Assembly: GCF_003334765.1 (NCBI RefSeq)
Contig: NZ_QOWT01000058.1
From: Escherichia coli
GTDB lineage: Bacteria; Pseudomonadota; Gammaproteobacteria; Enterobacterales; Enterobacteriaceae
Length of the DNA: 10,459 nucleotides
Reading direction: 5' to 3' (one strand)
Shown piece by piece: positions 1 through 10,459 of this stretch; position 1 is the first letter of the stretch, and each line of letters begins with the position of its first letter. A program made the translations under genes and the position numbers. The notes beneath the pieces are model-generated. The model ran no database searches. It was not told the origin of the DNA and saw only the letters and a list, made by a program, of their open reading frames with translations.

Positions 1-1016
1 ACCGAGAAAGACACTGAAGTTCAAAACACCGAAAGAGATAATTGAAAGGGGTGTTGCATTGACAGATTGAATCTACAACAGCGTATTTTGCACAGGAGTC
101 GCTGAAAAATACGCGTTAATCGAACAATGGCGACAACAATTTCCCATTGAAGCGATGTGTCAGGTATTTGGTGTATCCAGGAGCGGTTATTACAACTGGG
201 TACAGCATGAACCCTCAGACAGAAAACAAAGTGATGAGCGGCTAAAACTGGAGATTAAGGTGGCACATATCCGCACTCGCGAAACATATGGAACCCGGCG
301 GCTCCAGACGGAGCTGGCAGAGAATGGCATCATCGTTGGTCGTGACCGACTGGCACGTCTTCGTAAGGAGCTAAGGCTACGCTGTAAGCAGAAACGCAAG
401 TTCAGAGCGACTACGAACTCGAACCACAATCTGCCAGTTGCGCCAAATCTGCTGAACCAGACGTTCGCTCCTACAGCACCAAATCAGGTCTGGGTGGCGG
501 ACCTGACGTATGTTGCCACACAGGAGGGATGGTTGTACCTCGCTGGCATCAAAGATGTTTATACGTGCGAAATTGTCGGCTACGCCATGGGAGAGCGCAT
601 GACAAAAGAGCTGACAGGTAAAGCCCTGTTTATGGCGCTCAGGAGCCAGCGCCCACCTGCCGGGCTAATCCACCACTCTGATCGAGGTTCACAGTACTGC
701 GCATACGATTACCGGGTCATACAGGAGCAGTTTGGTCTGAAAACATCAATGTCGCGTAAAGGTAACTGTTACGACAACGCTCCGATGGAAAGCTTCTGGG
801 GAACGCTGAAAAATGAGAGCCTGAGCCACTATCGTTTTAATAACCGGGATGAAGCCATCTCAGTAATACGGGAATACATTGAGATTTTCTACAATCGTCA
901 GCGTCGTCACTCTCGTCTGGGGAATATCTCCCCGGCAGCCTTCAGGGAAAAATATCATCAGATGGCTGCTTAAAAAAAGAACAAATGGTAGTGTCCGCTA
1001 TTGCCAGTACACCTCA
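1..1016 (+). mobile_element. IS3-family insertion sequence (possibly IS600-like), 3' ~1 kb; left end lies outside the window
   Basis: OrfB frame is open from 71 and contains the 272-aa ORF 155..973. An OrfA-like C-terminal tail (QIESTTAYFAQESLKNTR, 63..119) sits in the frame that is -1-shifted relative to OrfB, the usual IS3-family arrangement. The proposed right end CCAGTACACCTCA (1004..1016) ends in CA; its reverse complement TGAGGTGTACTGGCAATAGCGGACAC resembles IS3-type terminal repeats as I recall them. The right boundary is an estimate. Confidence 0.7.
155..973 (+). CDS. IS3-family transposase OrfB (DDE integrase-core domain)
   Basis: 272-aa ORF with typical IS3 OrfB features: N-terminal VSRSGYY motif, WLYLA...D, HSDRGSQY and CYDNAPMESFWGTLK motifs. 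In IS3 elements this frame is normally expressed as an OrfAB fusion by -1 frameshifting; the frame is open upstream to 71. The specific IS name is from memory only. Confidence 0.9.
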   Translation: MCQVFGVSRSGYYNWVQHEPSDRKQSDERLKLEIKVAHIRTRETYGTRRLQTELAENGIIVGRDRLARLRKELRLRCKQKRKFRATTNSNHNLPVAPNLLNQTFAPTAPNQVWVADLTYVATQEGWLYLAGIKDVYTCEIVGYAMGERMTKELTGKALFMALRSQRPPAGLIHHSDRGSQYCAYDYRVIQEQFGLKTSMSRKGNCYDNAPMESFWGTLKNESLSHYRFNNRDEAISVIREYIEIFYNRQRRHSRLGNISPAAFREKYHQMAA

Positions 1017-1447
1017 CGCTTCCAGTCTTCGCGGTCGTTGTCGATAACTTCTTTTTTTGCCCAGCGATGGATGCTGCCGTCAATGTTTCCGGCATCCACA
1101 TCACTAGGCCAGAGAGCGTAGGCCAGTTCGTCATCCAGTGTTTTCCATGTCTGCTTGTATTCGCGATGAATGGCAGCAATGACCGGGCTGATTTTTCCTG
1201 TTGAATTTTCAGTGTACTGTTGATTGGCTCTGGCGCGGGCGAGATCAACAACAGACGTGTATTTTCCGGTTTCCTTGCGTTCACCTTCGCGACGTTTTTT
1301 CCAGATGCGCATCTCTGCCTGAATTTCGGGCCATTTAGCACCAGGAATACATTTATGCTTAACCCACCCAATGGCGTGCAACTTAAGCTCCGGATACGGG
1401 TTATTCCCCTCTGAACAGGCGCGTAAGGACTGGCAAAACGCCCGCAA
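998..1447 (-). CDS. hypothetical protein (phage-like), 3' end runs into the IS3-family element
   Basis: 149-codon ORF with protein-like composition, but the first codon is TTG and the first ATG is 46 codons in. The last 5 codons plus stop (998..1016) lie inside the proposed IS terminal sequence, so the native C-terminus may have been replaced by the insertion. A second minus-strand frame (970..1464) has low-complexity translation and is considered spurious. Confidence 0.3.
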   Translation of the reverse strand: MRAFCQSLRACSEGNNPYPELKLHAIGWVKHKCIPGAKWPEIQAEMRIWKKRREGERKETGKYTSVVDLARARANQQYTENSTGKISPVIAAIHREYKQTWKTLDDELAYALWPSDVDAGNIDGSIHRWAKKEVIDNDREDWKREVYWQ

Positions 1448-1466
1448 AAAACTCTCGAGGGCAAAG

Positions 1467-1637
1467 GTGAAGAAACCTGCTGTGGTTGATCCGGACCTTA
1501 TCTGGTCATCACCTGACGGAGAAATACGTCGCTACGACAGTCGCCTAAACATAATCTGTCGCGAGTGCCGGAAGAGCGAAGTTATGCAGCGCATACTGGC
1601 TTTCTATCAGGGTAATTTTCAGGACGTGGCGCAGTGA
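1467..1637 (+). CDS. small hypothetical ORF, translationally coupled (GTGA overlap) to the downstream methyltransferase-like gene
   Basis: The track ORF starts at 1371, but that would overlap the divergent minus-strand ORF. GTG at 1467 is preceded by GAGGG (1457..1461). Its stop TGA (1635..1637) overlaps the GTG start at 1634 of the next ORF. No recognised domain. Confidence 0.25.
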   Translation: MKKPAVVDPDLIWSSPDGEIRRYDSRLNIICRECRKSEVMQRILAFYQGNFQDVAQ

Positions 1638-2080
1638 GTGCACCGGCAACCATTCTTGATATGTGCTGTGGCAGCCGCATGTTCTGGTTCGATAAGTCTG
1701 ACGAACGGGCGATATTCAGCGATATCAGAAAAGAAGGATACACATTACGCAATGGGAGACGCTTGATTATCAGCCCTGACATTATCGCAGATTTTCGTGC
1801 ATTATCATTTGCAGACGCATCTTTTTCGATGGTTGTATTAGACCCTCCGCATCTTGAGAGTGTTGGTGATAACGCCTGGATGGGAAAGAAATATGGACGG
1901 CTGAATAAAGATGCCTGGCGTGATGATTCGCGACAGAGATTTAAAGAAGCCTTTCGGGTGTTGAGGCCGCACGGCGTTCTGATTTTTTAATGGAATGAAA
2001 CGCAAATACCGGTAAGCCAGATTCTGGCACTGACAGACAGAAAACCTGTTATCTGTCAACGAACAGGGAAAAAACGATAA
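1634..2080 (+). pseudogene. SAM-dependent (DNA) methyltransferase-like gene interrupted by an in-frame TAA at 1988..1990
   Basis: Translation contains a motif-I-like DMCCGSR and a motif-IV-like VVLDPPH (DPPY/NPPY class), then LRPHGVLIF before the TAA. The same frame stays open for 29 more codons (WNETQIPVSQILALTDRKPVICQRTGKKR) to TAA 2078..2080. Assignment to the N6-adenine/N4-cytosine methyltransferase class is by motif only. Confidence 0.45.
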
Positions 2081-2252
2081 AACCCACTGGATTATTTTTA
2101 TGAAAGAGGCATCCAGTGAGTAGATTCGTAAGGCTACAGATACGTATATCTGAATAATTAAATTCAGTTCTGTAAATAAAATTTAATCCTTAACCGGATG
2201 GATTTCTGCACCCTCAGAACATCAGGAGGCCGCCCGAAAGGGCGGTAGTGAA

Positions 2253-2363
2253 ATGCGAAAGTTCAAAATTATTATTGAAACGGGAATAGCTGGTGGAGAT
2301 TTTGAGGATGTATTCGAAGTGGACGATGACGCAACACCTGAGGAAATTCATGACGGAGCATAA
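2253..2363 (+). CDS. small acidic hypothetical ORF (36 aa)
   Basis: ATG 2253 to TAA 2361..2363, translation MRKFKIIIETGIAGGDFEDVFEVDDDATPEEIHDGA. AGGAGG lies at 2224..2229, separated from the ATG by a GAAA-capped hairpin (2229..2246). Below the ORF-track length cutoff and unverified. Confidence 0.2.
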   Translation: MRKFKIIIETGIAGGDFEDVFEVDDDATPEEIHDGA

Positions 2364-2412
2364 GAAATTTTCTTTAACTACTGCAATTACTCATACCACG
2401 AAATAAAAGACG

Positions 2413-2604
2413 ATGAGGAAGAACAAAGTGGCTGATTTTTGTTCAGCTAAATATAACATCAGTTTTGAAGAGCGGGATGAACTATTAATGGACTATGGTG
2501 AGTTACGCGGTGGAAGTGCTGCTGATGTCGAATCCTAGCGTGATGACTATGAAGCGGGAAAAACTCCGGTCGAAGCATATTGTGATGAGTGGGGCGATGA
2601 ATGA
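2413..2604 (+). pseudogene. short ORF interrupted by in-frame TAG (2536..2538); probable decayed prophage gene
   Basis: ATG 2413, 41 codons, TAG, then 21 more open codons to TGA 2602..2604. The alternative frame is also open, which fits decayed coding DNA. Confidence 0.2.
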
Positions 2605-2888
2605 GCGAGATTAATTATCAGGAAGGGCATGAAACGGCGGGGCAAGCAAAACCAGTGGCATGGCGATATCGCTACGTGAAAAAAGGCGTTACGGACTTTC
2701 AGGGGAAGTAGTGGTCTGGTGACTGGAAATATGTACCGAAAAAAGAGGATTGTAACGACAGGCCGAACTATCAAATTCAGGCCTTATTCACTGCCTCACC
2801 AGTCCCAGTTACATCAGAAGAACTGGTTAAAGCTGTGCACTTTTATGAACAACTAAAACGCGAAAATCCACCAACATCCGGCAACTAG
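2601..2888 (+). pseudogene. short ORF interrupted by in-frame TAG (2709..2711); probable decayed prophage gene
   Basis: ATG 2601 overlaps the upstream stop (ATGA). 36 codons, TAG, then 58 further open codons (WSGDWKYVPKKEDCNDRPNYQIQALFTASPVPVTSEELVKAVHFYEQLKRENPPTSGN) to TAG 2886..2888. Confidence 0.25.
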
Positions 2889-3142
2889 ATTAATGGATTA
2901 ACTATGTCGGTTAAACGACCAGCCAACTGAAAAAGCGGAAACCTGATTACAGGTTGCCAGATAAGGCAATGAGCTACCTGGCGCGGAACGGACTGATAAG
3001 TATGGGGAATGTTTTACGATGAACCTTTAGACTAAAGAGTTTGTAACGCTATGTAAGTGATTTTTTCTGGTTTAGATATTTATATGTCCGGCCAAATTGA
3101 GGTGTGTTTAAATGTAATTGCACATTGATTGTAGGAGGAATA

Positions 3143-3322
3143 ATGAAAAACGCATTGCAGTTTTTGTTTGTTGCGTTCTGGTTGTTCGCATCATGTATGC
3201 CCATCATCTTCACAGCAAGGTATATGGAAAAAGTTGATGTTTTGATATTAATATTTGGATATATAAATGCCCTTTTTTTAGGGGTGTTCATGGCGGTCAT
3301 GTGCATTGAATACTGGCGGTAA
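3143..3322 (+). CDS. small predicted membrane protein (59 aa, two hydrophobic helices) in an AT-rich islet
   Basis: Strong Shine-Dalgarno AGGAGG (3133..3138) 4 nt before ATG 3143. Translation MKNALQFLFVAFWLFASCMPIIFTARYMEKVDVLILIFGYINALFLGVFMAVMCIEYWR has two hydrophobic segments. Local GC content is low. The track lists a longer 3104 start with no ribosome-binding site. Confidence 0.4.
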   Translation: MKNALQFLFVAFWLFASCMPIIFTARYMEKVDVLILIFGYINALFLGVFMAVMCIEYWR

Positions 3323-3508
3323 ATACAGCGAACTCCATTGGTTTAGTTGGATATTTACTGTGCTGGACAAAAACGGTTTGCGGGGAAATCTTAGTTAAGT
3401 AGAATGACTGCGGGTGCTTGAGGCTATCTGCCTCGGGCATGGACACCAACGGCAGATAGAGAAAAGCCCCAGTTAACATTACGCGTCCTGCAAGACGCTT
3501 AACATTAA

Positions 3509-3590
3509 TCTGAGGCCAATTTCATGCTAGACACATGTAGGTTAGCCTCTTACGTGCCGAAAGGCACGGAGAAGCAGGCTATTGTTAACA
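3509..3590 (+). other. degenerate relE-3'end/hok-leader-like segment (paralogous remnant of the hokD translation-initiation region), no intact toxin ORF
   Basis: 3568..3582 GGAGAAGCAGGCTAT is identical to the hokD ribosome-binding site and start region at 6857..6871. The upstream hairpin CGTGCC-GAAA-GGCACG (3553..3568) parallels CACC-GAA-GGTG (6824..6834) with compensatory changes. 3509..3537 weakly resembles 6794..6818. The start position reads ATT and only 6 codons follow before TAA. Confidence 0.4.
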
Positions 3591-3627
3591 CCAAGCTGTA
3601 ATGTCCCCTTTGAACCATTCTAAAATG

Positions 3628-3654
3628 TCCCCAGACAATTCTCTGGGGGATTTT
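3628..3654 (+). other. stem-loop CCCCAGA-caattc-TCTGGGG plus T-run directly upstream of the transposase start
   Basis: 7-bp perfect stem followed by GATTTTTC, ending 2 nt before ATG 3657. It is terminator-like; it may insulate the transposase gene from read-in transcription or be part of the IS end. Confidence 0.4.
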
Positions 3655-3656
3655 TC

Positions 3657-4970
3657 ATGATCAAAGAGACTGTTACGATGAGTCATAAGGAACTCCACCG
3701 ACTTCAGATTATTCAGGAACAAGCTGCGGCACGCATTGGCATTTCTATTCGGCAGGTTAAACGTCTGGTGCAACGGTATAGAAATGAAGGGCCTTCTGGT
3801 CTGGTTTCCCACCGACGTGGAAAGCGTCCTAATAATTCCTTTTCTACTGAATTCAGAGCAACAGTAATTTCACTCCTCAAAGGCCGTTACGCTGATTTTG
3901 GACCTACGTTTGCGTGCGAAAAATTGCGCGAGATACACGGTTTATCTTTATCCGTTGAAACTCTCAGAAAGTGGATGATAGAAGAGGGGTTATGGCGTGA
4001 ACGCCGTCGTAAAATTGCCCGTATATATCAACGCCGCATGCGACGACCATCTTACGGTGAACTGATCCAGATTGATGGCTCACCTCATGACTGGTTTGAA
4101 AATCGAGGCCCCAGATGTACACTGATCGTTTTCATTGATGATGCCACCAGTGCGTTGATGGCGTTGCGTTTTGTGCCTGCTGAAACAACCCGGGCTTACA
4201 TGGAAACCCTCCGGGGTTACCTTAATGATCATGGCGTACCGCTCGCTCTCTACTCTGATAGACACAGTATATTCAGGGTAAATAACCCAGAGCGGGAAGG
4301 TGAGCTGACCCAGTTCACTCGTGCGATAAAGACACTGGGCATCGAGCCAATCCATGCCAACAGCCCGCAGGCAAAAGGGCGGGTAGAGCGCGCCAATCAG
4401 ACACTACAGGACAGGCTGGTCAAAGAAATGCGGCTTCAGAATATCAGTGATATTGAAACAGCAAATGCATGGTTGCCGACCTTTATTGAAGCCTATAACA
4501 ACCGGTTCGCTACGTCGCCTCGTACTACTGATAATGCTCATCTTGATGTGCACCATTCTGAAGAGGAACTGGGTTATATCTTCAGCCTACAGGCGAAGCG
4601 CGTTCTGTCTAAAAATCTCACTTTCCAGTACAAAAGCAGTGCGTTTCAGGTACGCAGTGAGGGCCGGGGATATCGACTTAGGCATTCGGTTGTTACTGTA
4701 TGCGAGAACTTTGACGGTGAAATTAACGTTCTGTATGACGGGAAAGCGCTGGGCTGGGAAAAGTATGTTGATGGCCCGGAGCCTATACCACTGGATGATG
4801 AAAAGAGTGTCCATGAACGAGTGGATAATGCCCGTATTGATTTACGCTCAAAATACTATGTTAAACCTAAAGCTGACCATCCCTGGCTTACGCGCCGAAC
4901 GCAAAGTCATCAGCAAGTTAAGCCCCCGAAGTTACCTAAAAAGAAGCCTGATCCCGATAAAAAAGATTGA
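3657..4970 (+). CDS. DDE transposase with N-terminal helix-turn-helix and integrase-core domain (ISNCY/IS1202-group or IS481-like)
   Basis: 437-aa ORF. The N-terminus (RIGISIRQVKRLVQRYRNEG) looks like a helix-turn-helix. Candidate catalytic residues are D in IQIDGSPHDW, D in ALYSDRHSIF and E in KGRVERANQTL. The basic lysine/proline-rich C-terminus is typical of transposases. GGGGGA precedes the ATG by 7 nt. Family assignment is from memory. Confidence 0.85.
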   Translation: MIKETVTMSHKELHRLQIIQEQAAARIGISIRQVKRLVQRYRNEGPSGLVSHRRGKRPNNSFSTEFRATVISLLKGRYADFGPTFACEKLREIHGLSLSVETLRKWMIEEGLWRERRRKIARIYQRRMRRPSYGELIQIDGSPHDWFENRGPRCTLIVFIDDATSALMALRFVPAETTRAYMETLRGYLNDHGVPLALYSDRHSIFRVNNPEREGELTQFTRAIKTLGIEPIHANSPQAKGRVERANQTLQDRLVKEMRLQNISDIETANAWLPTFIEAYNNRFATSPRTTDNAHLDVHHSEEELGYIFSLQAKRVLSKNLTFQYKSSAFQVRSEGRGYRLRHSVVTVCENFDGEINVLYDGKALGWEKYVDGPEPIPLDDEKSVHERVDNARIDLRSKYYVKPKADHPWLTRRTQSHQQVKPPKLPKKKPDPDKKD

Positions 4971-5366
4971 AACCAAGATCGATTCGGTTGAGTGCATATC
5001 CATTCATAGGGTAGATTCTTAAGTCGCGTTTCTGGTGTTCATTTTCGGGTGGTTTGTTACTTGTTTTACCGGGGATATGCCAGAAACGCGCTGAGTCAGT
5101 CTGGGCGGTGCGCGTAATGAGGCGTTATGGTAAATAGCCTATGCTAATGTCCGCTAAGAGCAAGAAGCGGAAGTTGGCAGTTTTGTGGACTGTCCCCACA
5201 AAAGTGACTACAGAAATAGTTGCAATTCATAATTGATCATGGGTTGTCAGTTAAACTCGTGGCGATTTAAATAGACTAATTGGGAGTGCGTCCATTACTT
5301 ATATCTTGTAATGTTAACTATCAGAAATGATACAAAGATAATATGTCTTTAAAGAAAAGGCTGATG

Positions 5367-5392
5367 GCGAAAAGTGGCCCGATGAGGGCCAC
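5367..5392 (-). terminator. rho-independent terminator of flxA
   Basis: Hairpin GTGGCCC-gatga-GGGCCAC (5374..5392). On the minus strand it is followed by TTTTCGCC, 14 nt downstream of the flxA stop. Confidence 0.5.
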
Positions 5393-5406
5393 AATACGGC
5401 TGTCAC

Positions 5407-5739
5407 TTAGACGTAAATATCAATGGTGCCAGCGGTATTTGTATCGTCTTTTTTCTCTTCTTTTTTATCAGGCTGAACTGTCGCGTCTTCATTCTTTTTC
5501 TCTGCCTGCTGCCTTAACAACTGCTCCAGTTGAGCCCAGAGGCTTTCAATTTGCTTCTGTACCAATGCAGCCATTTCTTTTTTCTGCTGTGTCGTCATCC
5601 CCTCTTCCGATGAGATTTTCCCAAGCTTTTCAGTCAGCACCTGAATTTGTCTTGTGATTTTGGCTATTTCTGATGTTCCTTCCGGGGCGGAGTTGTTTGA
5701 AATAACGGTTGAGGTATTTCCCTGAATTGTGACAGACAT
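5407..5739 (-). CDS. flxA: FlxA (FliA-regulated prophage protein)
   Basis: 110-aa ORF (MSVTIQGNTSTVISNNSAPEG...QQKKEMAALVQKQIESLWAQLEQLL...) recognised from memory as E. coli FlxA. GGAG lies 7 nt upstream of the ATG on the minus strand, and a sigma-28 promoter lies just upstream. Confidence 0.85.
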   Translation of the reverse strand: MSVTIQGNTSTVISNNSAPEGTSEIAKITRQIQVLTEKLGKISSEEGMTTQQKKEMAALVQKQIESLWAQLEQLLRQQAEKKNEDATVQPDKKEEKKDDTNTAGTIDIYV

Positions 5740-5762
5740 AGATTTCTCCTTTTAAAAAAGCA

Positions 5763-5789
5763 CTATCGGCATGCACAAAAAAATCTTTA
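5763..5789 (-). promoter_or_regulatory. sigma-28 (FliA) promoter for flxA
   Basis: Minus strand reads TAAAGATT-N11-GCCGATAG against the class-3 flagellar consensus TAAAGTTT-N11-GCCGATAA (14/16). The -10 element ends about 24 nt upstream of the flxA ATG. Confidence 0.6.
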
Positions 5790-5941
5790 ATCGTATTTCT
5801 TGTGTCATTAATTGTTTGATGTTCAGATTGTTTTCCTCGCGGGCTGGCGCGCCTCAGAAAGTAAAGCTTGTTGACAGGGGTAAACGTTCGGCAATAATTT
5901 TCTGCCGCATGCGGGTGTTGCATAAAACGTGTTACGTTCCT

Positions 5942-6247
5942 TTATCGACAGGTCAGGTCACCGCTCACCCGCCGACGAGAAAGCAACACTGACATGCTAA
6001 AGCAAAAAATAGATGAATAAGTTGAGTTGTGCATATGTAGCCTGACCGTCACAAAGTATATGGTGTCTGTACCAGTAAGATGATGGCCGGACTCTTTAAA
6101 AACGAGCTGACCTGCACAATACAGGATGGACTTAGCAATGGCTGCTCCTGGCACAAAGCGGACAGTGATCACCGTTCTTACGACTACTTTCTGACTTCCT
6201 TCGTGACTTGCCCTAAGCATGTTGTAGTGCGATACTTGTAATGACAT
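5942..6247 (-). CDS. ydfV: YdfV-like hypothetical ORF (doubtful coding status)
   Basis: 101-codon ORF at the position where K-12 annotates ydfV, as I recall. Its ATG (6245..6247) lies inside the relBE operator repeats and the translation is S/T/C-rich and poorly protein-like, so it is kept at low confidence. Confidence 0.4.
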   Translation of the reverse strand: MSLQVSHYNMLRASHEGSQKVVVRTVITVRFVPGAAIAKSILYCAGQLVFKESGHHLTGTDTIYFVTVRLHMHNSTYSSIFCFSMSVLLSRRRVSGDLTCR

Positions 6248-6259
6248 TTGTAATTACAA
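6208..6259 (+). promoter_or_regulatory. relBE promoter and operator (relO)
   Basis: -35 TTGCCC (6208..6213), 17-nt spacer, -10 GATACT (6231..6236). TTGTAAT repeats at 6236..6242 and 6248..6254, and the palindrome TTGTAATTACAA (6248..6259), lie between the promoter and the relB ATG at 6272. This is the classic RelB-RelE autoregulation site. Confidence 0.65.
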
Positions 6260-6271
6260 GAGGTGTAAGAC

Positions 6272-6511
6272 ATGGGTAGCATTAACCTGCGTATTGACGA
6301 TGAACTTAAAGCGCGTTCTTACGCCGCGCTTGAAAAAATGGGTGTAACTCCTTCTGAAGCGCTTCGTCTCATGCTCGAGTATATCGCTGACAATGAACGC
6401 TTGCCGTTCAAACAGACACTCCTGAGTGATGAAGATGCTGAACTTGTGGAGATAGTGAAAGAACGGCTTCGTAATCCTAAGCCAGTACGTGTGACGCTGG
6501 ATGAACTCTGA
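6272..6511 (+). CDS. relB: RelB antitoxin
   Basis: 79-aa ORF MGSINLRIDDELKARSYAALEKMGVTPSEALRLMLEYIADNERLPFKQTLLSDEDAELVEIVKERLRNPKPVRVTLDEL, near-identical to E. coli RelB from memory. Its stop overlaps the relE start (TGATG). Confidence 0.93.
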   Translation: MGSINLRIDDELKARSYAALEKMGVTPSEALRLMLEYIADNERLPFKQTLLSDEDAELVEIVKERLRNPKPVRVTLDEL

Positions 6512-6798
6512 TGGCGTATTTTCTGGATTTTGACGAGCGGGCACTAAAGGAATGGCGAAAGCTGGGCTCGACGGTACGTGAACAGTTGAAAAAGAAGCTG
6601 GTTGAAGTACTTGAGTCACCCCGGATTGAAGCAAACAAGCTCCGTGGTATGCCTGATTGTTACAAGATTAAGCTCCGGTCTTCAGGCTATCGCCTTGTAT
6701 ACCAGGTTATAGACGAGAAAGTTGTCGTTTTCGTGATTTCTGTTGGGAAAAGAGAACGCTCGGAAGTATATAGCGAGGCGGTCAAACGCATTCTCTGA
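6511..6798 (+). CDS. relE: RelE mRNA interferase toxin
   Basis: 95-aa ORF MAYFLDFDERALKEWRKLGSTVREQLKKKLVEVLESPRIEANKLRGMPDCYKIKLRSSGYRLVYQVIDEKVVVFVISVGKRERSEVYSEAVKRIL, recognised as RelE. It is translationally coupled to relB. Confidence 0.93.
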   Translation: MAYFLDFDERALKEWRKLGSTVREQLKKKLVEVLESPRIEANKLRGMPDCYKIKLRSSGYRLVYQVIDEKVVVFVISVGKRERSEVYSEAVKRIL

Positions 6799-6869
6799 AC
6801 CAAAGCATGACATCTCTGTTTCGCACCGAAGGTGACACTTCTGCTTTGCGTTGACAGGAGAAGCAGGCT

Positions 6870-7025
6870 ATGAAGCAGCAAAAGGCGATGTTAATCGCCC
6901 TGATCGTCATCTGTTTAACCGTCATAGTGACGGCACTGGTAACGAGGAAAGACCTCTGCGAGGTACGAATCCGAACCGGCCAGACGGAGGTCGCTGTCTT
7001 CACAGCTTACGAACCTGAGGAGTAA
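6870..7025 (+). CDS. hokD: HokD (RelF) Hok-family type I membrane toxin
   Basis: 51-aa ORF MKQQKAMLIALIVICLTVIVTALVTRKDLCEVRIRTGQTEVAVFTAYEPEE, not in the ORF track because it is short. It has a ribosome-binding site GGAG at 6857..6860. The Hok family signature is a transmembrane helix followed by LCE. Confidence 0.9.
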   Translation: MKQQKAMLIALIVICLTVIVTALVTRKDLCEVRIRTGQTEVAVFTAYEPEE

Positions 7026-7083
7026 GAGACCCGGCGGGGGAGAAATCCCTCGCCACCTCTGATGTGGCAGGCATCCTCAACGC

Positions 7084-7115
7084 ACCCGCACTTAACCCGC
7101 TTCGGCGGGTTTTTG
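7084..7115 (+). terminator. rho-independent terminator after the relB-relE-hokD operon
   Basis: Hairpin CCCGC-ttcg-GCGGG (7086..7099) followed by TTTTTGTTTTTATTTT (7100..7115). Confidence 0.6.
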
Positions 7116-7241
7116 TTTTTATTTTCAACGCGTTTGAAGTTCTGGACGGTGCCGGAATAGAATCAAAAATACTTAAGTAGCGCGCAGGGATAAGAGGGAT
7201 GGTCCCTTAAAGGGGAGAGCTAATTATCCGGAAGGATTCTG

Positions 7242-7493
7242 ATGATGAACATCGAAGAACTGCGTAAAATTTTTTGTGAAGATGGCCTCTATGCTGTGTG
7301 CGTTGAAAATGGAAATCTTGTTAGTCATTACCGCATTATGTGTTTGCGAAAGAATGGGGCTGCGTTAATTAATTTTGTGGATGCTCGGGTCACGGACGGA
7401 TTTATCTTGCGCGAAGGTGAGTTTGTCACTTCATTACAGGCATTGAAAGAGATCGGAATAAAAGCTGGCTTTTCTGCTTTTTCAGGAGAATAA
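7242..7493 (+). CDS. rem: Rem-like prophage protein
   Basis: 83-aa ORF MMNIEELRKIFCEDGLYAVCVENGNLVSHYRIMCLRKNGAALINFVDARVTDGFILREGEF..., matching Qin prophage Rem by memory and by its position between hokD and ydfU. Confidence 0.8.
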   Translation: MMNIEELRKIFCEDGLYAVCVENGNLVSHYRIMCLRKNGAALINFVDARVTDGFILREGEFVTSLQALKEIGIKAGFSAFSGE

Positions 7494-7559
7494 ACTCATC
7501 TACAATCTTGCGCGGGGCTGAACTCCCGCTGAGTAACACCGTGCCACCGGAGAAAACCG

Positions 7560-7838
7560 ATGGCACGCAACGCAAAATATTACAATTCTGATAATTCGCC
7601 CGTTCTTGCCTGCACGCACGGGCGGTATTCTCACGCATTCAAGTCTGAATGGTTCCAGCACCCTCCATGCACTGCAGAACAGGCCGAATGGCTGATTCAT
7701 TCTTACCGCAGGCGCGGGTTCGAGGTTAAGAAAGCTCTCAGTCTCGACTATCGGCACTGGATAATCTCTGTCAGGCTGCCTTATTCCGAACGCCCACCAC
7801 GTGCGTCCCGCACTTTCCAGCAACGGATCTGGAGGTAA
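7560..7838 (+). CDS. hypothetical prophage protein (92 aa), tightly coupled to ydfU
   Basis: GGAG sits 7 nt upstream of the ATG. Its stop at 7836..7838 is followed 1 nt later by the ydfU GTG start, whose ribosome-binding site GGAGG (7831..7835) lies inside this ORF. No recognised domain. Confidence 0.45.
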   Translation: MARNAKYYNSDNSPVLACTHGRYSHAFKSEWFQHPPCTAEQAEWLIHSYRRRGFEVKKALSLDYRHWIISVRLPYSERPPRASRTFQQRIWR

Positions 7839-7839
7839 C

Positions 7840-8889
7840 GTGCGGGTATTACTTAGACCTGTTCTGGTGCCTGAGCTTGGGCTGGTGGTCCTTAAGCCGG
7901 GCCGTGAATCCATACAGATATTTCATAATCCTCGAGTGCTGGTGGAACCGGAACCAAAAAGCATGCGTAATCTGCCATCCGGAGTCGTTCCTGCCGTTCG
8001 CCAGCCGCTGGCGGAAGACAAAACATTGCTGCCGTTTTTTAGTAACGAACGGGTGATTCGTGCTGCTGGCGGCGTTGGCGCATTGTCCGACTGGCTATTA
8101 CGTCATGTTACATCCTGCCAGTGGCCTAATGGCGATTACCATCACACTGAAACAGTCATTCACCGTTATGGTACCGGCGCAATGGTGTTGTGCTGGCACT
8201 GCGACAACCAACTGCGTGACCAGACATCGGAATCACTGGAGCTGCTTGCTCAACAAAATCTGACAGCATGGGTGATTGACGTCATCCGTCACGCAATAAG
8301 CGGTACGCAGGAGCGGGAATTATCTTTGGCTGAATTATCCTGGTGGGCGGTCTGCAATCAGGTGGTGGATGCACTACCTGAGGCTGTATCGCGTCGTTCG
8401 CTGGGATTACCAGCGGAAAAAATCTGCTCGGTGTACCGCGAAAGCGACATCGTACCGGGAGAGCAGACCGCCACCAGCATATTGAAACAACGCACAAAAA
8501 ATCTTGCACCGTTGCCTTACGCCCACCAGCAACAAAAATCACCACAGGAAAAGACGGTGGTAAGCATCACCGTTGATCCAGAGTCTCCGGAATCTTTCAT
8601 GAAGCTGCCTAAACGTCGCCGCTGGGTTAAGGAGAAATACACACGTTGGGTTAAGACACAGCCGTGTGCTTGCTGCGGTATGCCAGCCGACGATCCGCAT
8701 CATCTGATTGGTCACGGGCAGGGCGGAATGGGAACAAAAGCACATGATCTCTTTGTGTTGCCTTTGTGCAGAAAGCATCACAACGAGCTGCATACGGATA
8801 CAGTGGCATTTGAAGATAAGTATGGCTCCCAACTGGAGCTGATATTTCGTTTTATCGATCGCGCGCTGGCAATTGGCGTACTGGCGTAA
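7840..8889 (+). CDS. ydfU: YdfU-like DUF968 protein (HNH-like C-terminal motif)
   Basis: The track ORF 7801..8889 is trimmed to GTG 7840, which is preceded by GGAGG, giving 349 aa. The C-terminus CACCGMPADDPHHLIGHGQGGMGTKAHDLFVLPLCRKHHNELH has a Cys/His pattern like HNH/zinc-binding nucleases. Identity is from memory. Confidence 0.8.
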   Translation: MRVLLRPVLVPELGLVVLKPGRESIQIFHNPRVLVEPEPKSMRNLPSGVVPAVRQPLAEDKTLLPFFSNERVIRAAGGVGALSDWLLRHVTSCQWPNGDYHHTETVIHRYGTGAMVLCWHCDNQLRDQTSESLELLAQQNLTAWVIDVIRHAISGTQERELSLAELSWWAVCNQVVDALPEAVSRRSLGLPAEKICSVYRESDIVPGEQTATSILKQRTKNLAPLPYAHQQQKSPQEKTVVSITVDPESPESFMKLPKRRRWVKEKYTRWVKTQPCACCGMPADDPHHLIGHGQGGMGTKAHDLFVLPLCRKHHNELHTDTVAFEDKYGSQLELIFRFIDRALAIGVLA

Positions 8890-8902
8890 GTGGAGAACGA
8901 GC

Positions 8903-9655
8903 ATGAACCTTGAAGCCTTACCAAAATATTACTCCCCAAAATCTCCAAAATTGAGCGATGACGCTCCAGCGACAGGCACCGGTTGTTTAACAATTACGGA
9001 TGTAATGGCAGCGCAGGGGATGGTGCAGTCGAAAGCACCACTTGGGTTGGCCTTATTTCTGGCAAAAGTTGGTGTTCAGGACCCTCAGTTTGCGATTGAA
9101 GGCCTGCTAAATTACGCGATGGCACTGGATAACCCGACATTGAACAAATTGAGTGAAGAAATCCGGTTACAGATTATTCCTTACCTCGTGAGTTTTGCCT
9201 TTGCTGATTACTCCAGGTCTGCGGCAAGTAAGGCTCGCTGTGAGCATTGTTCAGGTACGGGATTTTATAATGTATTGCGCGAAGTGGTGAAACACTACAG
9301 ACGCGGGGAATCTGTAATCAAGGAAGAATGGGTGAAGGAACTATGTCAGCATTGCCATGGTAAGGGCGAAGCCAGCACAGCGTGCAGAGGGTGTAAGGGT
9401 AAAGGGATTGTTCTGGATGAAAAAAGAACCCGGTTTCATGGCGTACCGGTATATAAGATTTGTGGGCGTTGTAATGGAAACCGGTTTAGTCGTTTACCGA
9501 CCACGCTGGCACGACGTCATGTCCAGAAGCTGGTACCAGACCTGACCGATTATCAGTGGTATAAGGGGTATGCGGACGTCATTGGTAAACTGGTAACAAA
9601 GTGCTGGCAGGAAGAAGCATACGCGGAAGCGCAATTGAGGAAGGTGACGAGATAA
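8903..9655 (+). CDS. quuQ: Q-family late-gene antiterminator (QuuQ-like)
   Basis: 250 aa from ATG 8903, which has GGAG 6 nt upstream; the track ORF starts 10 codons earlier. Contains several CxxC pairs (CEHCSGTG, CQHCHGKG, CRGCKGKG, CGRCNGN) and is followed by a promoter-terminator pair arranged like lambdoid P_R'-tR'. Confidence 0.85.
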   Translation: MNLEALPKYYSPKSPKLSDDAPATGTGCLTITDVMAAQGMVQSKAPLGLALFLAKVGVQDPQFAIEGLLNYAMALDNPTLNKLSEEIRLQIIPYLVSFAFADYSRSAASKARCEHCSGTGFYNVLREVVKHYRRGESVIKEEWVKELCQHCHGKGEASTACRGCKGKGIVLDEKRTRFHGVPVYKICGRCNGNRFSRLPTTLARRHVQKLVPDLTDYQWYKGYADVIGKLVTKCWQEEAYAEAQLRKVTR

Positions 9656-9686
9656 ATGATTTTTGCTGAAGATGGCGACATGATGT

Positions 9687-9715
9687 TTGCATTTTTCAAA
9701 AAATATGGATAAAAT
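9687..9715 (+). promoter_or_regulatory. putative late promoter (P_R'-like sigma-70 promoter) downstream of quuQ
   Basis: -35 TTGCAT (9687..9692), 17-nt spacer, -10 TAAAAT (9710..9715), beginning 32 nt after the quuQ stop. Confidence 0.5.
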
Positions 9716-9760
9716 TTTTTCAACGATGGGCTTTGTATACCCGACGTTAAGAAAAAGTAG

Positions 9761-9790
9761 AAAACCCGCTGATGAGCGGGTTTTGTGCTT
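9761..9790 (+). terminator. rho-independent terminator (tR'-like, possibly bidirectional)
   Basis: Hairpin CCCGCT-gatg-AGCGGG (9765..9780) followed by TTTTGTGCTTT. An A-run precedes it, so it could also act on the minus strand. It lies about 50-60 nt downstream of the predicted start of the putative late promoter. Confidence 0.55.
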
Positions 9791-10076
9791 TAAATGGGGC
9801 AATGGTAATGTTGAATCTCATCCCGGGACTCATGTCTGTTAACTTATTATTTAGCTGGTGACTTGGTTATTTGCCTGATGTTTAAAATGTTTTCTTCCAG
9901 TACAATGTCCCTAAACACAATGAGTCTGCTTATTATATTATTAGCAGAGCTATTACGGCCAAAGTACAGCATAAGCTTTTAAAGCCAATCAACCAGTCAT
10001 CAAGACAGACGGGGTTATTCATAAAAACTCTCCATGTGTGATCCGATGGGGCCTGAAATTAAAGCTTTAATATAGC

Positions 10077-10289
10077 TCATGAAAGGTAAACATTGGCAGC
10101 TGAAGGGCCACGCAGACCATTTATCCGGCAAAATTCCACGCGTAATCCGGTGGTAATTTCTTCTGCATCGCGGAGATTGAGCGCTGAAACATGAAGCTGG
10201 ACATCGATACGACCATCGGATGGGGTGATAAGACCCTTGCCGCTTTTGCCGTCAAAGGTTTTGACAATTCCTGTCATTTTACGGGACAA
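10077..10289 (-). CDS. cspF: cold-shock-domain protein, CspF/CspH family
   Basis: 70-aa [73 protein letters not shown] with CspA-family motifs. It is convergent with quuQ. The first codon is TTG, with AAGGA 6 nt upstream. Confidence 0.8.
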
Positions 10290-10459
10290 AAAAATTCCTT
10301 AATACTGATAACTTGGCGCACTATACACACGTTCCTGAAGAAAGCTATAGTTTTTTGATGGGGTTGAAGATGGCTGGATGTCTAAGGAAGGTGCGAATAA
10401 GCGGGGAAATACTTCTCGGCTGACTCAGTCATTTCATTTCTTCATGTTTGAGCCGATTT

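What the first reader, a model, noticed from the sequence alone, without database searches (positions are those of the whole stretch)
3509..3600. Degenerate second copy of the hokD leader next to the transposase gene
The 15-mer GGAGAAGCAGGCTAT (3568..3582) is identical to the hokD ribosome-binding site and start region (6857..6871). The hairpin just upstream is conserved through compensatory changes (CGTGCC-GAAA-GGCACG here, CACC-GAA-GGTG at hokD), and sequence further upstream loosely matches the relE 3' end. No toxin ORF follows: the start position is ATT and a stop comes 6 codons later. It may be a relic of a paralogous relE-hok or hok/sok-type locus, perhaps truncated by the adjacent IS. 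Chromosomal hok loci are often inactivated by IS insertion, so this fits a known pattern.
Basis: partly seen in the sequence, partly recalled or inferred. Interest (0 to 1): 0.55.

Follow-up and report, generated by a model that had tools for sequence, protein, structure and literature searches.

The report
hokD leader split off by relBE transposon
The "second copy" of the hokD leader is the original front half of the hokD toxin locus, cut off from the toxin gene by a 3.3-kb transposon that carries the relBE toxin-antitoxin genes and that repeatedly inserts at this same spot in hok-type loci on phages and plasmids.

Summary
The 15-mer GGAGAAGCAGGCTAT (3568-3582 and 6857-6871) is real and not chance. 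It is not a relic of a paralogous locus. It is the 15-bp target-site duplication of a 3,274-bp IS1202-family (ISEsa1-like) transposon at 3583-6856. The transposon has 22/30 matching terminal inverted repeats and carries a transposase, flxA, ydfV and relBE. Many E. coli genomes have the empty site, where window 3582 joins 6872 through a single copy of the 15-mer. That gives an intact hok/sok locus of the hokW-sokW type.

Window 3412-3582 is therefore the authentic hokD mRNA leader (Rfam RF01794, 104 bits, full length). It keeps a mok start (3524) and an apparently intact Sok antisense gene (3462-3532, minus strand). Its 5' end pairs best with the hokD 3' UTR.

The same transposon type, with varying cargo (3.3 to 12.8 kb), sits at the same position and in the same orientation in at least 12 other hok-family loci. 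Each has its own 15-16-bp duplication starting at the hok Shine-Dalgarno GGAG. This explains how the classic relBE-hokD operon arose. It also suggests a hok-targeting transposon that I did not find described in the literature.

The parts
3378..3405 (+). Putative hokD promoter (TTGCGG, 16 nt, TAGAAT), 6-7 nt before the leader's 5' end
   Evidence: Read from the sequence. Conserved in the VT2-Sakai hokW locus. The consensus promoter scan did not call it, so this is inferred only.
3412..3582 (+). hokD mRNA leader, with 5' tac-type stem, Sok target region, mok start and hok Shine-Dalgarno, now cut off from the hokD coding sequence
   Evidence: Rfam RF01794 at 104.1 bits (gathering score 59), model positions 1-157 of 157, E=2.4e-23. 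Fold -64.5 kcal/mol, z -4.56. Contiguous with the hokD coding sequence in empty-site genomes.
3409..3432 (+). 5' end of the hok mRNA (tac-type element), complementary to the hokD 3' UTR
   Evidence: Its best duplex partner on the + strand of the window is 7062-7091 at -36.9 kcal/mol. The next best is -28.5.
3462..3532 (-). sokD antisense RNA gene (orphaned antitoxin), with its presumed promoter at about 3536-3566, all to the left of the insertion point
   Evidence: Mapped from the annotated sokW misc_RNA of phage VT2-Sakai through alignment A1. Folds as a 15-nt 5' tail plus a long hairpin plus a U tail, -28.7 kcal/mol, z -5.12. The promoter position is inferred by analogy with R1 sok (own knowledge).
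3524..3601 (+). Truncated mokD' ORF: 19 native codons, 6 transposon-encoded codons, then a stop
   Evidence: Translation. mokW starts at the homologous ATG in VT2-Sakai and is in frame with hokW.
3553..3568 (+). hok-leader hairpin CGTGCC-GAAA-GGCACG, directly next to the duplicated target
   Evidence: Sequence. Paired in the Rfam alignment and in the minimum-free-energy fold. Present, with variants, in all hok targets of the transposon.
3568..3582 (+). Left copy of the 15-bp target-site duplication (hok Shine-Dalgarno GGAG through the AT of ATG)
3583..6856 (+). 3,274-bp IS1202-family (ISEsa1-like) transposon with passenger genes
   Evidence: Absent from empty-site alleles. The same unit occurs at about 99.6-99.8% identity on Enterobacter, Salmonella and E. 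coli plasmids, in other hok loci with different duplications.
3583..3612 (+). Left terminal inverted repeat (IRL), TGTTAACACCAAGCTGTAATGTCCCC...
   Evidence: 22 of 30 positions match the reverse complement of 6827-6856. Identical IRL in 53 junctions from other sources.
3628..3649 (+). Terminator-like hairpin plus T run between IRL and the transposase start
   Evidence: Its role as a shield against outside transcription is inferred.
3657..4970 (+). Transposase, 437 aa. It equals the 446-aa plasmid ISEsa1-family transposase minus an in-frame 9-aa deletion in the HTH region. Its last 49 aa are K-12 'YdfW'.
   Evidence: NCBIfam NF033594 ISNCY_2 at 456 bits (cut-off 250). Pfam HTH and rve_3 domains. 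Alignment. YdfW identity.
5407..5739 (-). flxA (passenger gene)
   Evidence: ORF. Annotation of the identical locus in ATCC 8739 and K-12.
5942..6247 (-). ydfV (passenger gene)
6272..6798 (+). relB (6272-6511) and relE (6511-6798), part of the conserved right-end module of the transposon (about 6130-6856)
   Evidence: The right module is conserved in units with different cargo.
6827..6856 (+). Right terminal inverted repeat (IRR), ...CTTCTGCTTTGCGTTGACA, containing the CACCGAAGGTG hairpin
   Evidence: Found next to the duplication in 7 complete units.
6857..6871 (+). Right copy of the 15-bp target-site duplication. It restores the Shine-Dalgarno and, with G6872, the ATG of hokD.
6870..7025 (+). 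hokD coding sequence (51 aa)
7062..7091 (+). fbi-type 3' element of the hok mRNA, complementary to 3409-3432

Best explanation
Window 3412-3582, which includes the reported 3509-3600, is the original 5' half of the hokD type I toxin-antitoxin locus. It holds the hok mRNA leader with its 5' tac-type stem, the mok start, the hok Shine-Dalgarno and, on the opposite strand, the Sok antisense RNA gene.

A 3,274-bp IS1202-family (ISEsa1-like) DDE transposon inserted between the T and G of the hokD ATG. It carries a transposase, flxA, ydfV and relBE. The insertion duplicated 15 bp (GGAGAAGCAGGCTAT).

Because the duplication regenerates the Shine-Dalgarno and start codon on the right side, hokD stays translatable. 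It is now downstream of relBE, forming the relBE-hokD operon, and it has lost its Sok-controlled leader. The left side is an orphan: a promoter, leader and Sok gene whose sense transcript runs into the transposon end.

Shown here:
- the insertion, its inverted repeats and its duplication;
- empty sites in other genomes;
- the same unit in other hok loci;
- leader and Sok homology and folds;
- 5'-3' complementarity of the two halves.

Inferred:
- SokD is still transcribed;
- the leader transcript stops at the hairpin at 3628-3649;
- hokD is expressed only from the relBE promoter, free of Sok control;
- the transposase itself, rather than selection, chooses the hok site.
For: 1. The 15-mer occurs twice, with 0 of 200 shuffles matching that.

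2. A chimeric query made of 3330-3582 plus 6872-7130 matches as one ungapped piece at 98.4-99.2% in many E. coli genomes, where it is annotated hokD. In L002, window 1388-3582 and 6856-8889 abut with a single copy of the 15-mer, in a syntenic Qin-like prophage.

3. The ends are inverted repeats matching at 22 of 30 positions, TGT...ACA. The transposase is an ISNCY/IS1202-type protein, 456 bits against a cut-off of 250. PGAP names the plasmid copy an IS1202-like ISEsa1 family transposase.

4. Complete units in other hok-family loci each have their own duplication:
- IncI pnd locus: TGGAGGGGCTATGAT
- IncF hok locus: GGAGAAGAAGGCCAT
- Phytobacter plasmid: GGAGAAGTCAGCTAT, 12,843-bp unit
- metagenome units of 3304, 4237 and 4600 bp: 16-bp duplications

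5. The Rfam hok-leader model ends exactly at IRL here and in at least 10 other distinct loci.

6. The reconstructed locus is 92% identical to the annotated mokW/hokW/sokW locus of VT2-Sakai and 98.9% identical to phages mEp460 and HannyBb. hokW-sokW is an experimentally shown toxin-antitoxin system (PMC8621323).

7. The 5' end at 3409-3432 pairs best in the whole window with the hokD 3' UTR at 7062-7091, at -36.9 kcal/mol.

8. The predicted SokD has the canonical tail, hairpin and U-tail shape, z -5.1.

9. K-12 retains only window 4786 onward. This fits the known lack of a leader at K-12 hokD and co-transcription as relBEF (Gotfredsen and Gerdes 1998, as cited in PMC5120126).

10. PMC6379469 (citing Ramisetty and Santhosh 2016) already states that relBE integrated into an ancestral hokD of about 70 codons.
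Against: - No expression data were available. Transcription of Sok and of the leader, and termination at 3628-3649, are inferred.
- The simple promoter scan found no sigma-70 consensus in 3300-3700.
- The window's transposase has a 9-aa in-frame deletion in its DNA-binding region, so this copy may be immobile.
- ISEsa1 is listed in the literature as 1,609 bp with no detectable duplication (PMC10132070). My reading that the real mobile unit extends to the relBE-side repeat departs from the curated definition.
- Six of about 30 distinct IRL flanks are not hok-like.
- IRR-15bp-IRL tandem junctions (L007, L023) are not fully explained.
Confidence: 0.9

Rival explanations
1. First reader's view. 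The segment is a degenerate relic of a second, paralogous hok (or relE-hok) locus. Its toxin gene was lost when an adjacent IS truncated it, and it is unrelated to the hokD gene 3.3 kb downstream.
For: There is hok-leader similarity and no toxin ORF follows. Chromosomal hok loci disrupted by IS elements are known in E. coli K-12 (own knowledge: Pedersen and Gerdes 1999).
Against: The leader and the hokD coding sequence are contiguous, through a single copy of the 15-mer, in many genomes and phages. The leader's 5' end is complementary to the hokD 3' UTR. No other leader precedes hokD. The leader is not degenerate (104 bits, full-length model).
Confidence: 0.03
2. The two 15-mers arose by homologous or illegitimate recombination (a segmental rearrangement within the prophage), not by transposition. 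The relBE block is not a mobile unit.
For: Qin-like prophages are mosaic and heavily rearranged. The window itself has an IS3 element and a 4.6-kb deletion relative to ATCC 8739.
Against: The block has terminal inverted repeats and encodes a DDE transposase. The same block lies in unrelated hok loci on IncI and IncF plasmids, flanked by repeats of the local sequence, always 15-16 bp and starting at the same base.
Confidence: 0.03
3. The insertion is a transposition event, but the enrichment at hok loci reflects selection rather than target choice. Insertions that detach a toxic hok gene from its leader, or that land on plasmids and phages, survive and spread.
For: An unrelated IS481-like element also sits in a hok Shine-Dalgarno with a 5-bp repeat (L056). 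IS elements next to chromosomal hok genes are common (own knowledge). Six IRL flanks are not hok.
Against: At least 12 distinct hok, pnd or hokD targets are hit at the same nucleotide (duplication starting at GGAG, ending at AT or ATG) and always in the same orientation. Selection for inactivation alone would scatter insertions over about 400 bp and both orientations. Relatives in the IS1202 family are proven to be site- and orientation-specific (PMC10132070; bioRxiv 10.1101/2022.12.17.520857).
Confidence: 0.12
4. The 15-mer repeat is a chance match or simply the conserved Shine-Dalgarno and start region shared by two independent hok-family genes.
For: hok Shine-Dalgarno regions are similar across the family (GGAGAAG.AGGC.ATG).
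Against: 0 of 200 shuffles gave two matches. There is only one hok coding sequence and one leader in the window. Empty sites have one copy.
Confidence: 0.01

Closest known systems
hokW-sokW of Sakai prophage 5 / phage VT2-Sakai (hok/sok family, type I toxin-antitoxin; PMC8621323)
   Same: The reconstructed uninterrupted locus (3330-3582 plus 6872-7130) is 92% identical to the annotated mokW/hokW/sokW locus. It lies in the same position in a lambdoid prophage and has the same Sok gene, the same mok start in frame with hok, and the same leader.
   Different: Here the locus is split at the start codon by 3.3 kb. The leader and Sok are separated from the toxin gene, which is now driven from relBE.
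relBE-hokD (relBEF) operon of the E. coli K-12 Qin prophage
   Same: Window 4786-10385 is 99.98% identical to K-12, with the same IRR-duplication-hokD junction.
   Different: K-12 has lost IRL, most of the transposase gene (only 'ydfW' is left) and the whole hok leader and Sok gene. The transposon origin cannot be seen in K-12, but this window preserves both junctions.
Site-specific IS1202-family elements (ISAjo2 / ISAba32 subgroup, which target dif/pdif/xrs sites)
   Same: A related DDE transposase family, imperfect terminal repeats of about 24-30 bp, orientation-specific insertion next to a short palindromic site, and occasional passenger genes (PMC10132070; bioRxiv 10.1101/2022.12.17.520857).
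   Different: The target is the Shine-Dalgarno and start codon of hok-family genes, not Xer sites. The duplication is 15-16 bp, not 5-6 bp. A relBE module is fixed at the right end and cargo reaches about 11 kb. ISEsa1 itself was reported as 1,609 bp with no duplication.
IS-associated chromosomal hok loci of E. coli K-12 (hokA/IS150, hokC and hokE/IS186; Pedersen and Gerdes 1999, own knowledge)
   Same: A hok locus disrupted by a mobile element.
   Different: Those IS elements lie beside the hok genes and carry no cargo. Here the insertion is at one exact nucleotide in the translation-initiation region and brings a type II toxin-antitoxin system.

Membership tests
[quoted passage not shown] | Structured hok mRNA leader | tested here: met
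   RF01794 at 104.1 bits against a gathering score of 59, covering the full model, at 3412-3583. Fold z -4.56.
[quoted passage not shown] | Short antisense Sok RNA gene overlapping the mok translation-initiation region | tested here: met
   Homologous to the annotated sokW. The fold is a tail, hairpin and U tail, z -5.12. Transcription was not tested.
[quoted passage not shown] | mok reading frame starting in the leader and overlapping hok | tested here: met
   ATG at 3524, homologous to the mokW start. It is truncated after 19 native codons by the insertion.
[quoted passage not shown] | Long-range 5'-3' (tac-fbi) pairing of the full-length mRNA | tested here: met
   3409-3432 pairs with 7062-7091 at -36.9 kcal/mol, the best partner in the window.
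[quoted passage not shown] | Hok toxin ORF of about 50 aa directly following its leader on one transcript | tested here: not met
   The leader ends at 3582 and hokD starts at 6870, with 3,274 bp of transposon between them. The locus is a split, not an intact, family member.
IS1202 family (ISNCY group) transposable element | Single DDE transposase of 400-500 aa of the family | tested here: met
   NF033594 transpos_ISNCY_2 at 456 bits (cut-off 250). The identical plasmid protein is named an IS1202-like ISEsa1 family transposase by PGAP. The window copy is 437 aa with a 9-aa deletion.
IS1202 family (ISNCY group) transposable element | Imperfect terminal inverted repeats of about 24-30 bp | tested here: met
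   22 of 30 positions match, 3583-3612 against 6827-6856.
IS1202 family (ISNCY group) transposable element | Direct target repeats of a subgroup-specific length (5-6, 16-17 or 27-28 bp) | tested here: inconclusive
   The repeats are 15 bp here and in 3 other units, and 16 bp in 3 units. This is close to the 16-17-bp class, but ISEsa1 was reported with no duplication and placed in a separate subgroup (PMC10132070).
IS1202 family (ISNCY group) transposable element | Length 1.3-2.0 kb (longer only with passenger genes) | tested here: met
   3,274 bp with four passenger genes. This counts as a transporter IS or unit transposon. Relatives measure 4.2, 4.6 and 12.8 kb.
IS1202 family (ISNCY group) transposable element | Demonstrated transposition activity | not testable with these tools
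   Supported only by comparative evidence: at least 7 complete units with target-derived repeats.

The most novel reading that the evidence does not exclude
A family of IS1202-type transposons has an ISEsa1 transposase module at the left end, a relBE plus IRR module at the right end, and variable cargo in between (flxA-ydfV, metal-efflux genes, the ncr/chr nickel and chromate resistance cluster).

These transposons insert site- and orientation-specifically at the Shine-Dalgarno and start codon of hok-family type I toxin genes on phages and plasmids. They make 15-16-bp duplications. Each insertion cuts the toxin gene off from its Sok-controlled leader and places it behind a type II toxin-antitoxin system.

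This would be the origin of the textbook relBEF operon. It would also mean that 'ISEsa1', listed as 1,609 bp with no duplication, is only the left part of the real mobile unit. I found no description of this in the searchable literature.
Probability: 0.5. Interest if true: 0.72.

Novelty: new variant of a known kind. Interest (0 to 1): 0.6.

Why it matters
relBE of E. coli K-12 is the model type II toxin-antitoxin system, and hokD (relF) is the odd hok gene without a leader. This window shows how the two came together. relBE is the right-end module of a transposon that landed in the hokD start codon, and the missing hokD leader and Sok gene still sit 3.3 kb upstream in many strains.

It also points to something more general.
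- A transposon appears to use hok loci as a landing pad. These loci are typical of plasmids and prophages, which makes them a 'safe haven' that guarantees a mobile vehicle.
- The insertion swaps one addiction system for another.
- The transposon can carry metal-resistance genes among Enterobacteriaceae plasmids.

For annotation:
- K-12 'ydfW' is a transposase fragment.
- The orphan Sok gene is unannotated in every genome I looked at.

Tried and rejected
- **Exact search for the fbi element.** I searched for the reverse complement of the leader 5' end with up to 3 mismatches and found nothing downstream of hokD. The element has a one-base bulge and was found only by duplex folding.
- **Promoter scan of 3300-3700.** It found no promoter. 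The hok and sok promoters are placed by homology only.
- **Inverted-repeat search within 3300-5420.** It gave a 12-nt match (3471-3482 with 5308-5319) that I first took for a possible internal right end. Comparison of many copies shows that the left module ends at different points (5135-5175) with no constant internal repeat, so I dropped it.
- **Species-representative genome scan with the IRL.** It gave only 5 loci. The metagenome scan was more useful, with 45 loci.
- **Non-hok left flanks.** Six flanks (L008, L012, L025/L041, L028, L034, L038) were not resolved. No matching repeat was found within the DNA held. They may be rearranged copies or other targets.
- **Literature.** Ramisetty and Santhosh 2016 could not be read. 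Searches for ISEsa1, IS1202 plus hok, ISNCY plus hok plus relE, and relBE plus hok plus transposon plus target site duplication found no description of this element.

Full report
**Observation**

The 15-mer GGAGAAGCAGGCTAT occurs exactly twice in the window, at 3568-3582 and 6857-6871. None of 200 dinucleotide-preserving shuffles gave two matches.

- A stringent local alignment of the two neighbourhoods returns only the 15-mer.
- The 100 nt upstream of each copy align no better than shuffles: score 8 against a mean of 8.4, with 694 of 1000 shuffles at least as good.
- Rfam finds no hok-leader signal upstream of the hokD coding sequence even at E<=10.

**What the left segment is**

Rfam family RF01794 is named 'sok'. 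Its model is matched here in the hok mRNA orientation and ends at the hok AUG. It matches window 3412-3583 on the + strand over its full length at 104 bits, against a gathering score of 59. This is the only such match in the window.

The segment folds much better than shuffles, at -64.5 kcal/mol with z -4.56. So it is a complete, well-preserved hok leader, not a degenerate one.

**The key test**

I joined 3330-3582 to 6872-7130, that is, the leader to the hokD coding sequence through a single 15-mer, and searched complete E. coli genomes. The chimera matches as one ungapped piece at 98.4-99.2% identity in many genomes, where the coding sequence is annotated hokD.

In strain SW071618 (L002), window 1388-3582 and 6856-8889 abut. 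The 15-mer is present once, and the neighbours are the same Qin-type prophage genes. Strain CP53 gives the same result.

So 3583-6856 is an insertion in the hokD locus, and the 15-mer is a direct repeat of the target.

The reconstructed locus is 92% identical to the annotated mokW/hokW/sokW locus of phage VT2-Sakai and 98.9% identical to phages mEp460 and HannyBb. hokW-sokW is an experimentally characterised type I toxin-antitoxin system (PMC8621323).

**The inserted element**

Its ends are inverted repeats. IRL is TGTTAACACCAAGCTGTAATGTCCCCTTTG. The reverse complement of the right end is TGTCAACGCAAAGCAGAAGTGTCACCTTCG. They match at 22 of 30 positions.

The ORF at 3657-4970 is an ISNCY/IS1202-type DDE transposase: NCBIfam NF033594 at 456 bits against a cut-off of 250, with Pfam HTH and rve_3 domains. 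It is identical to the 446-aa 'IS1202-like element ISEsa1 family transposase' of plasmid copies, except for an in-frame 9-aa deletion in the N-terminal HTH region.

Between the transposase and the right end lie flxA, ydfV, relB and relE.

It moves with the element.

**The same unit elsewhere**

The whole 3.3-kb unit occurs at about 99.6-99.8% identity on Enterobacter, Salmonella, E. coli and Citrobacter plasmids. Scans of genome and metagenome collections with the IRL gave further junctions, for a total of 53 junctions with 30 distinct left flanks.

Complete units, with both ends seen:

| Locus | Context | Unit length | Direct repeat |
|---|---|---|---|
| window | Qin-type hokD | 3,274 bp | GGAGAAGCAGGCTAT (15 bp) |
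| L033 | hokD-type (metagenome), a separate event | 3,304 bp | GGAGAAGCAGGCTATG (16 bp) |
| L005 | Salmonella IncI plasmid, pnd-type locus next to trbA | 3,301 bp | TGGAGGGGCTATGAT (15 bp) |
| L006 | Enterobacter asburiae IncF plasmid, hok | 3,301 bp | GGAGAAGAAGGCCAT (15 bp) |
| L016 | metagenome | 4,237 bp | 16 bp |
| L045 | metagenome | 4,600 bp | 16 bp |
| L059 | Phytobacter IncF plasmid, carrying ncrABCY, chrBA and others | 12,843 bp | GGAGAAGTCAGCTAT (15 bp) |

The repeat sequence differs with the local hok gene, so the mobile unit is IRL to IRR and excludes hok.

In every case:
- IRL faces the leader and IRR faces the toxin gene.
- The repeat begins at the GGAG of the hok Shine-Dalgarno (TGGAG in the pnd-type locus), directly after the leader hairpin.
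- The repeat ends at AT or ATG of the start codon.

The Rfam leader model ends exactly at IRL in at least 10 distinct loci.

**Architecture**

Copies share two modules:
- a left module of about 1.6 kb (window 3583 to about 5135-5175);
- a right module of about 0.72 kb (about 6130-6856: the relBE promoter, relB, relE and IRR).

The cargo between the two differs from copy to copy.

The left module matches the published size of ISEsa1, 1,609 bp. [quoted passage not shown] My inference is that the functional unit ends at the relBE-side repeat, which would explain that negative result.

The IS1202 family is known for subgroup-specific repeat lengths (5-6, 16-17 and 27-28 bp), for occasional passenger genes, and for one subgroup that targets Xer sites in a fixed orientation (bioRxiv 10.1101/2022.12.17.520857; PMC10132070).

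**Anatomy of the orphan half**

I mapped features from the annotated VT2-Sakai locus.
- The Sok gene is at 3462-3532 on the minus strand. It folds as a 15-nt 5' tail, a long hairpin and a U tail, z -5.12.
- mok starts at 3524 and is in frame with hok. This is consistent with the 'about 70-codon ancestral hokD' mentioned in PMC6379469.
- hok would start at 3581.

The 5' end of the leader (3409-3432) has its best duplex partner in the whole window at 7062-7091, in the hokD 3' UTR, at -36.9 kcal/mol against -28.5 for the runner-up. This is the 5'-3' pairing typical of hok mRNAs (own knowledge of the R1 system). It independently ties the two halves to one former transcript.

The presumed Sok promoter lies at about 3536-3566, to the left of the insertion, so Sok is probably still made.

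A terminator-like hairpin at 3628-3649 precedes the transposase start. It may stop leader transcripts.

**Consequences for hokD**

The duplication restores GGAG plus spacer plus ATG in front of hokD. The Sok target and mok start are now 3.3 kb away, on a different transcript.

hokD is known to be co-transcribed with relBE in K-12 (Gotfredsen and Gerdes 1998, cited in PMC5120126).

K-12 matches the window only from 4786 onward, at 99.98%. It has lost IRL, most of the transposase gene and the whole leader. Its 'YdfW' is exactly the last 49 residues of the transposase.

Among 5,426 complete E. coli genomes:
- 784 have the leader-IRL junction;
- 1,168 have the IRR-hokD junction;
- most carry uninterrupted hokD-type loci.

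**Rivals**

- A separate paralogous relic is excluded by the empty sites and the 5'-3' complementarity.
- Rearrangement without transposition is excluded by the inverted repeats, the transposase and the target-specific repeats at unrelated loci.
- Selection rather than target choice could contribute to the hok bias. An unrelated IS481-like element also sits in a hok Shine-Dalgarno in L056, with a 5-bp repeat, and six flanks are not hok. However, single-nucleotide precision and a constant orientation in at least 12 distinct targets argue for real site specificity.

**Prior knowledge and novelty**

It is published that relBE integrated into hokD and came from plasmids (PMC6379469, citing Ramisetty and Santhosh 2016, which I could not read). 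It is also known that IS elements disrupt chromosomal hok loci.

I found no paper that describes the following:
- the transposon;
- its repeats;
- the 15-16-bp duplication;
- the surviving leader and Sok gene;
- the hok targeting.

I therefore rate the feature as a new variant of a known kind, with moderate to good interest.

Noticed in passing
window 4821-4970: The K-12 'protein YdfW' (49 aa) is exactly the C-terminal 49 residues of the ISEsa1-like transposase. K-12 homology to the window begins at 4786, so ydfW is a transposase remnant and not a gene of its own.
   Followed up: yes
window about 3714-3720 (transposase codon 19/20): The chromosomal transposase copy, here and in ATCC 8739, lacks 27 bp (9 aa, QESINRHIT) in the HTH region compared with plasmid copies. 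This copy may be immobile.
   Followed up: partly
L056 5678-6765: A different IS of about 1.09 kb sits inside a hok Shine-Dalgarno with a 5-bp repeat GGAGA. It has an rve/IS481-like transposase on the minus strand and ends TGTATGGGTCC... and ...CTTACACA. An ISEsa1-like IRL is inserted 15 bp beyond it. The hok Shine-Dalgarno is therefore hit by at least two IS types.
   Followed up: partly
L007 3212-3228; L023 about 11715-11730: These loci have tandem junctions of IRR, a 15-bp GGAG... segment and IRL, between two different element variants. This could be a second insertion into the regenerated target or recombination between copies. It was not resolved.
   Followed up: no
L047 (metagenome contig): The IRL side lies in the hokD leader, but the IRR side is followed by GGAGTTGTATGGGTCC instead of the matching repeat. 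This is an apparent recombinant between two copies of the transposon at different sites.
   Followed up: no
L059 1016-13858 (Phytobacter plasmid NZ_AP018757); L045; L016: Cargo varies between copies: the ncrABCY plus chrBA metal-resistance cluster (12.8-kb unit), a cation-diffusion-facilitator-like transporter plus a membrane protein (4.6 kb), and a P-loop kinase-like ORF and others (4.2 kb). Matches to the element occur in 983 plasmid records, mostly Klebsiella and Enterobacter.
   Followed up: partly
window 1-1397: Compared with ATCC 8739, the window lacks about 4.6 kb (ydfD, dicB, ydfC/B/A, dicA, dicC, a ydaT-like gene and most of the DUF977 gene). It has an IS3-family orfB at 155-973 abutting the exonuclease gene remnant.
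   Followed up: partly
window 3628-3649: A terminator-like hairpin TCCCCAGACAATTCTCTGGGGG followed by ATTTTTC lies just inside the IRL and ends 8 nt before the transposase ATG. It may shield the transposase gene from outside transcription.
   Followed up: no
window 7034-7115: A weak Rfam match to isrK (25 bits, below the gathering score of 50, E 0.003) covers the hokD 3' UTR and terminator. It is probably just the terminator hairpins.
   Followed up: no
window 1634-1990 and 2263-2900: The methyltransferase-like ORF ends prematurely, and the small ORFs downstream carry internal stops. PGAP marks the same genes as pseudogenes in ATCC 8739, so this prophage region is decaying.
   Followed up: no
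L008, L012, L025/L041, L028, L034, L038: Six IRL junctions have left flanks that are not hok leaders. One follows a GC-rich hairpin, and one follows a GAGG plus spacer plus AT that looks like another gene start. No matching repeat was found in the DNA held.
   Followed up: partly
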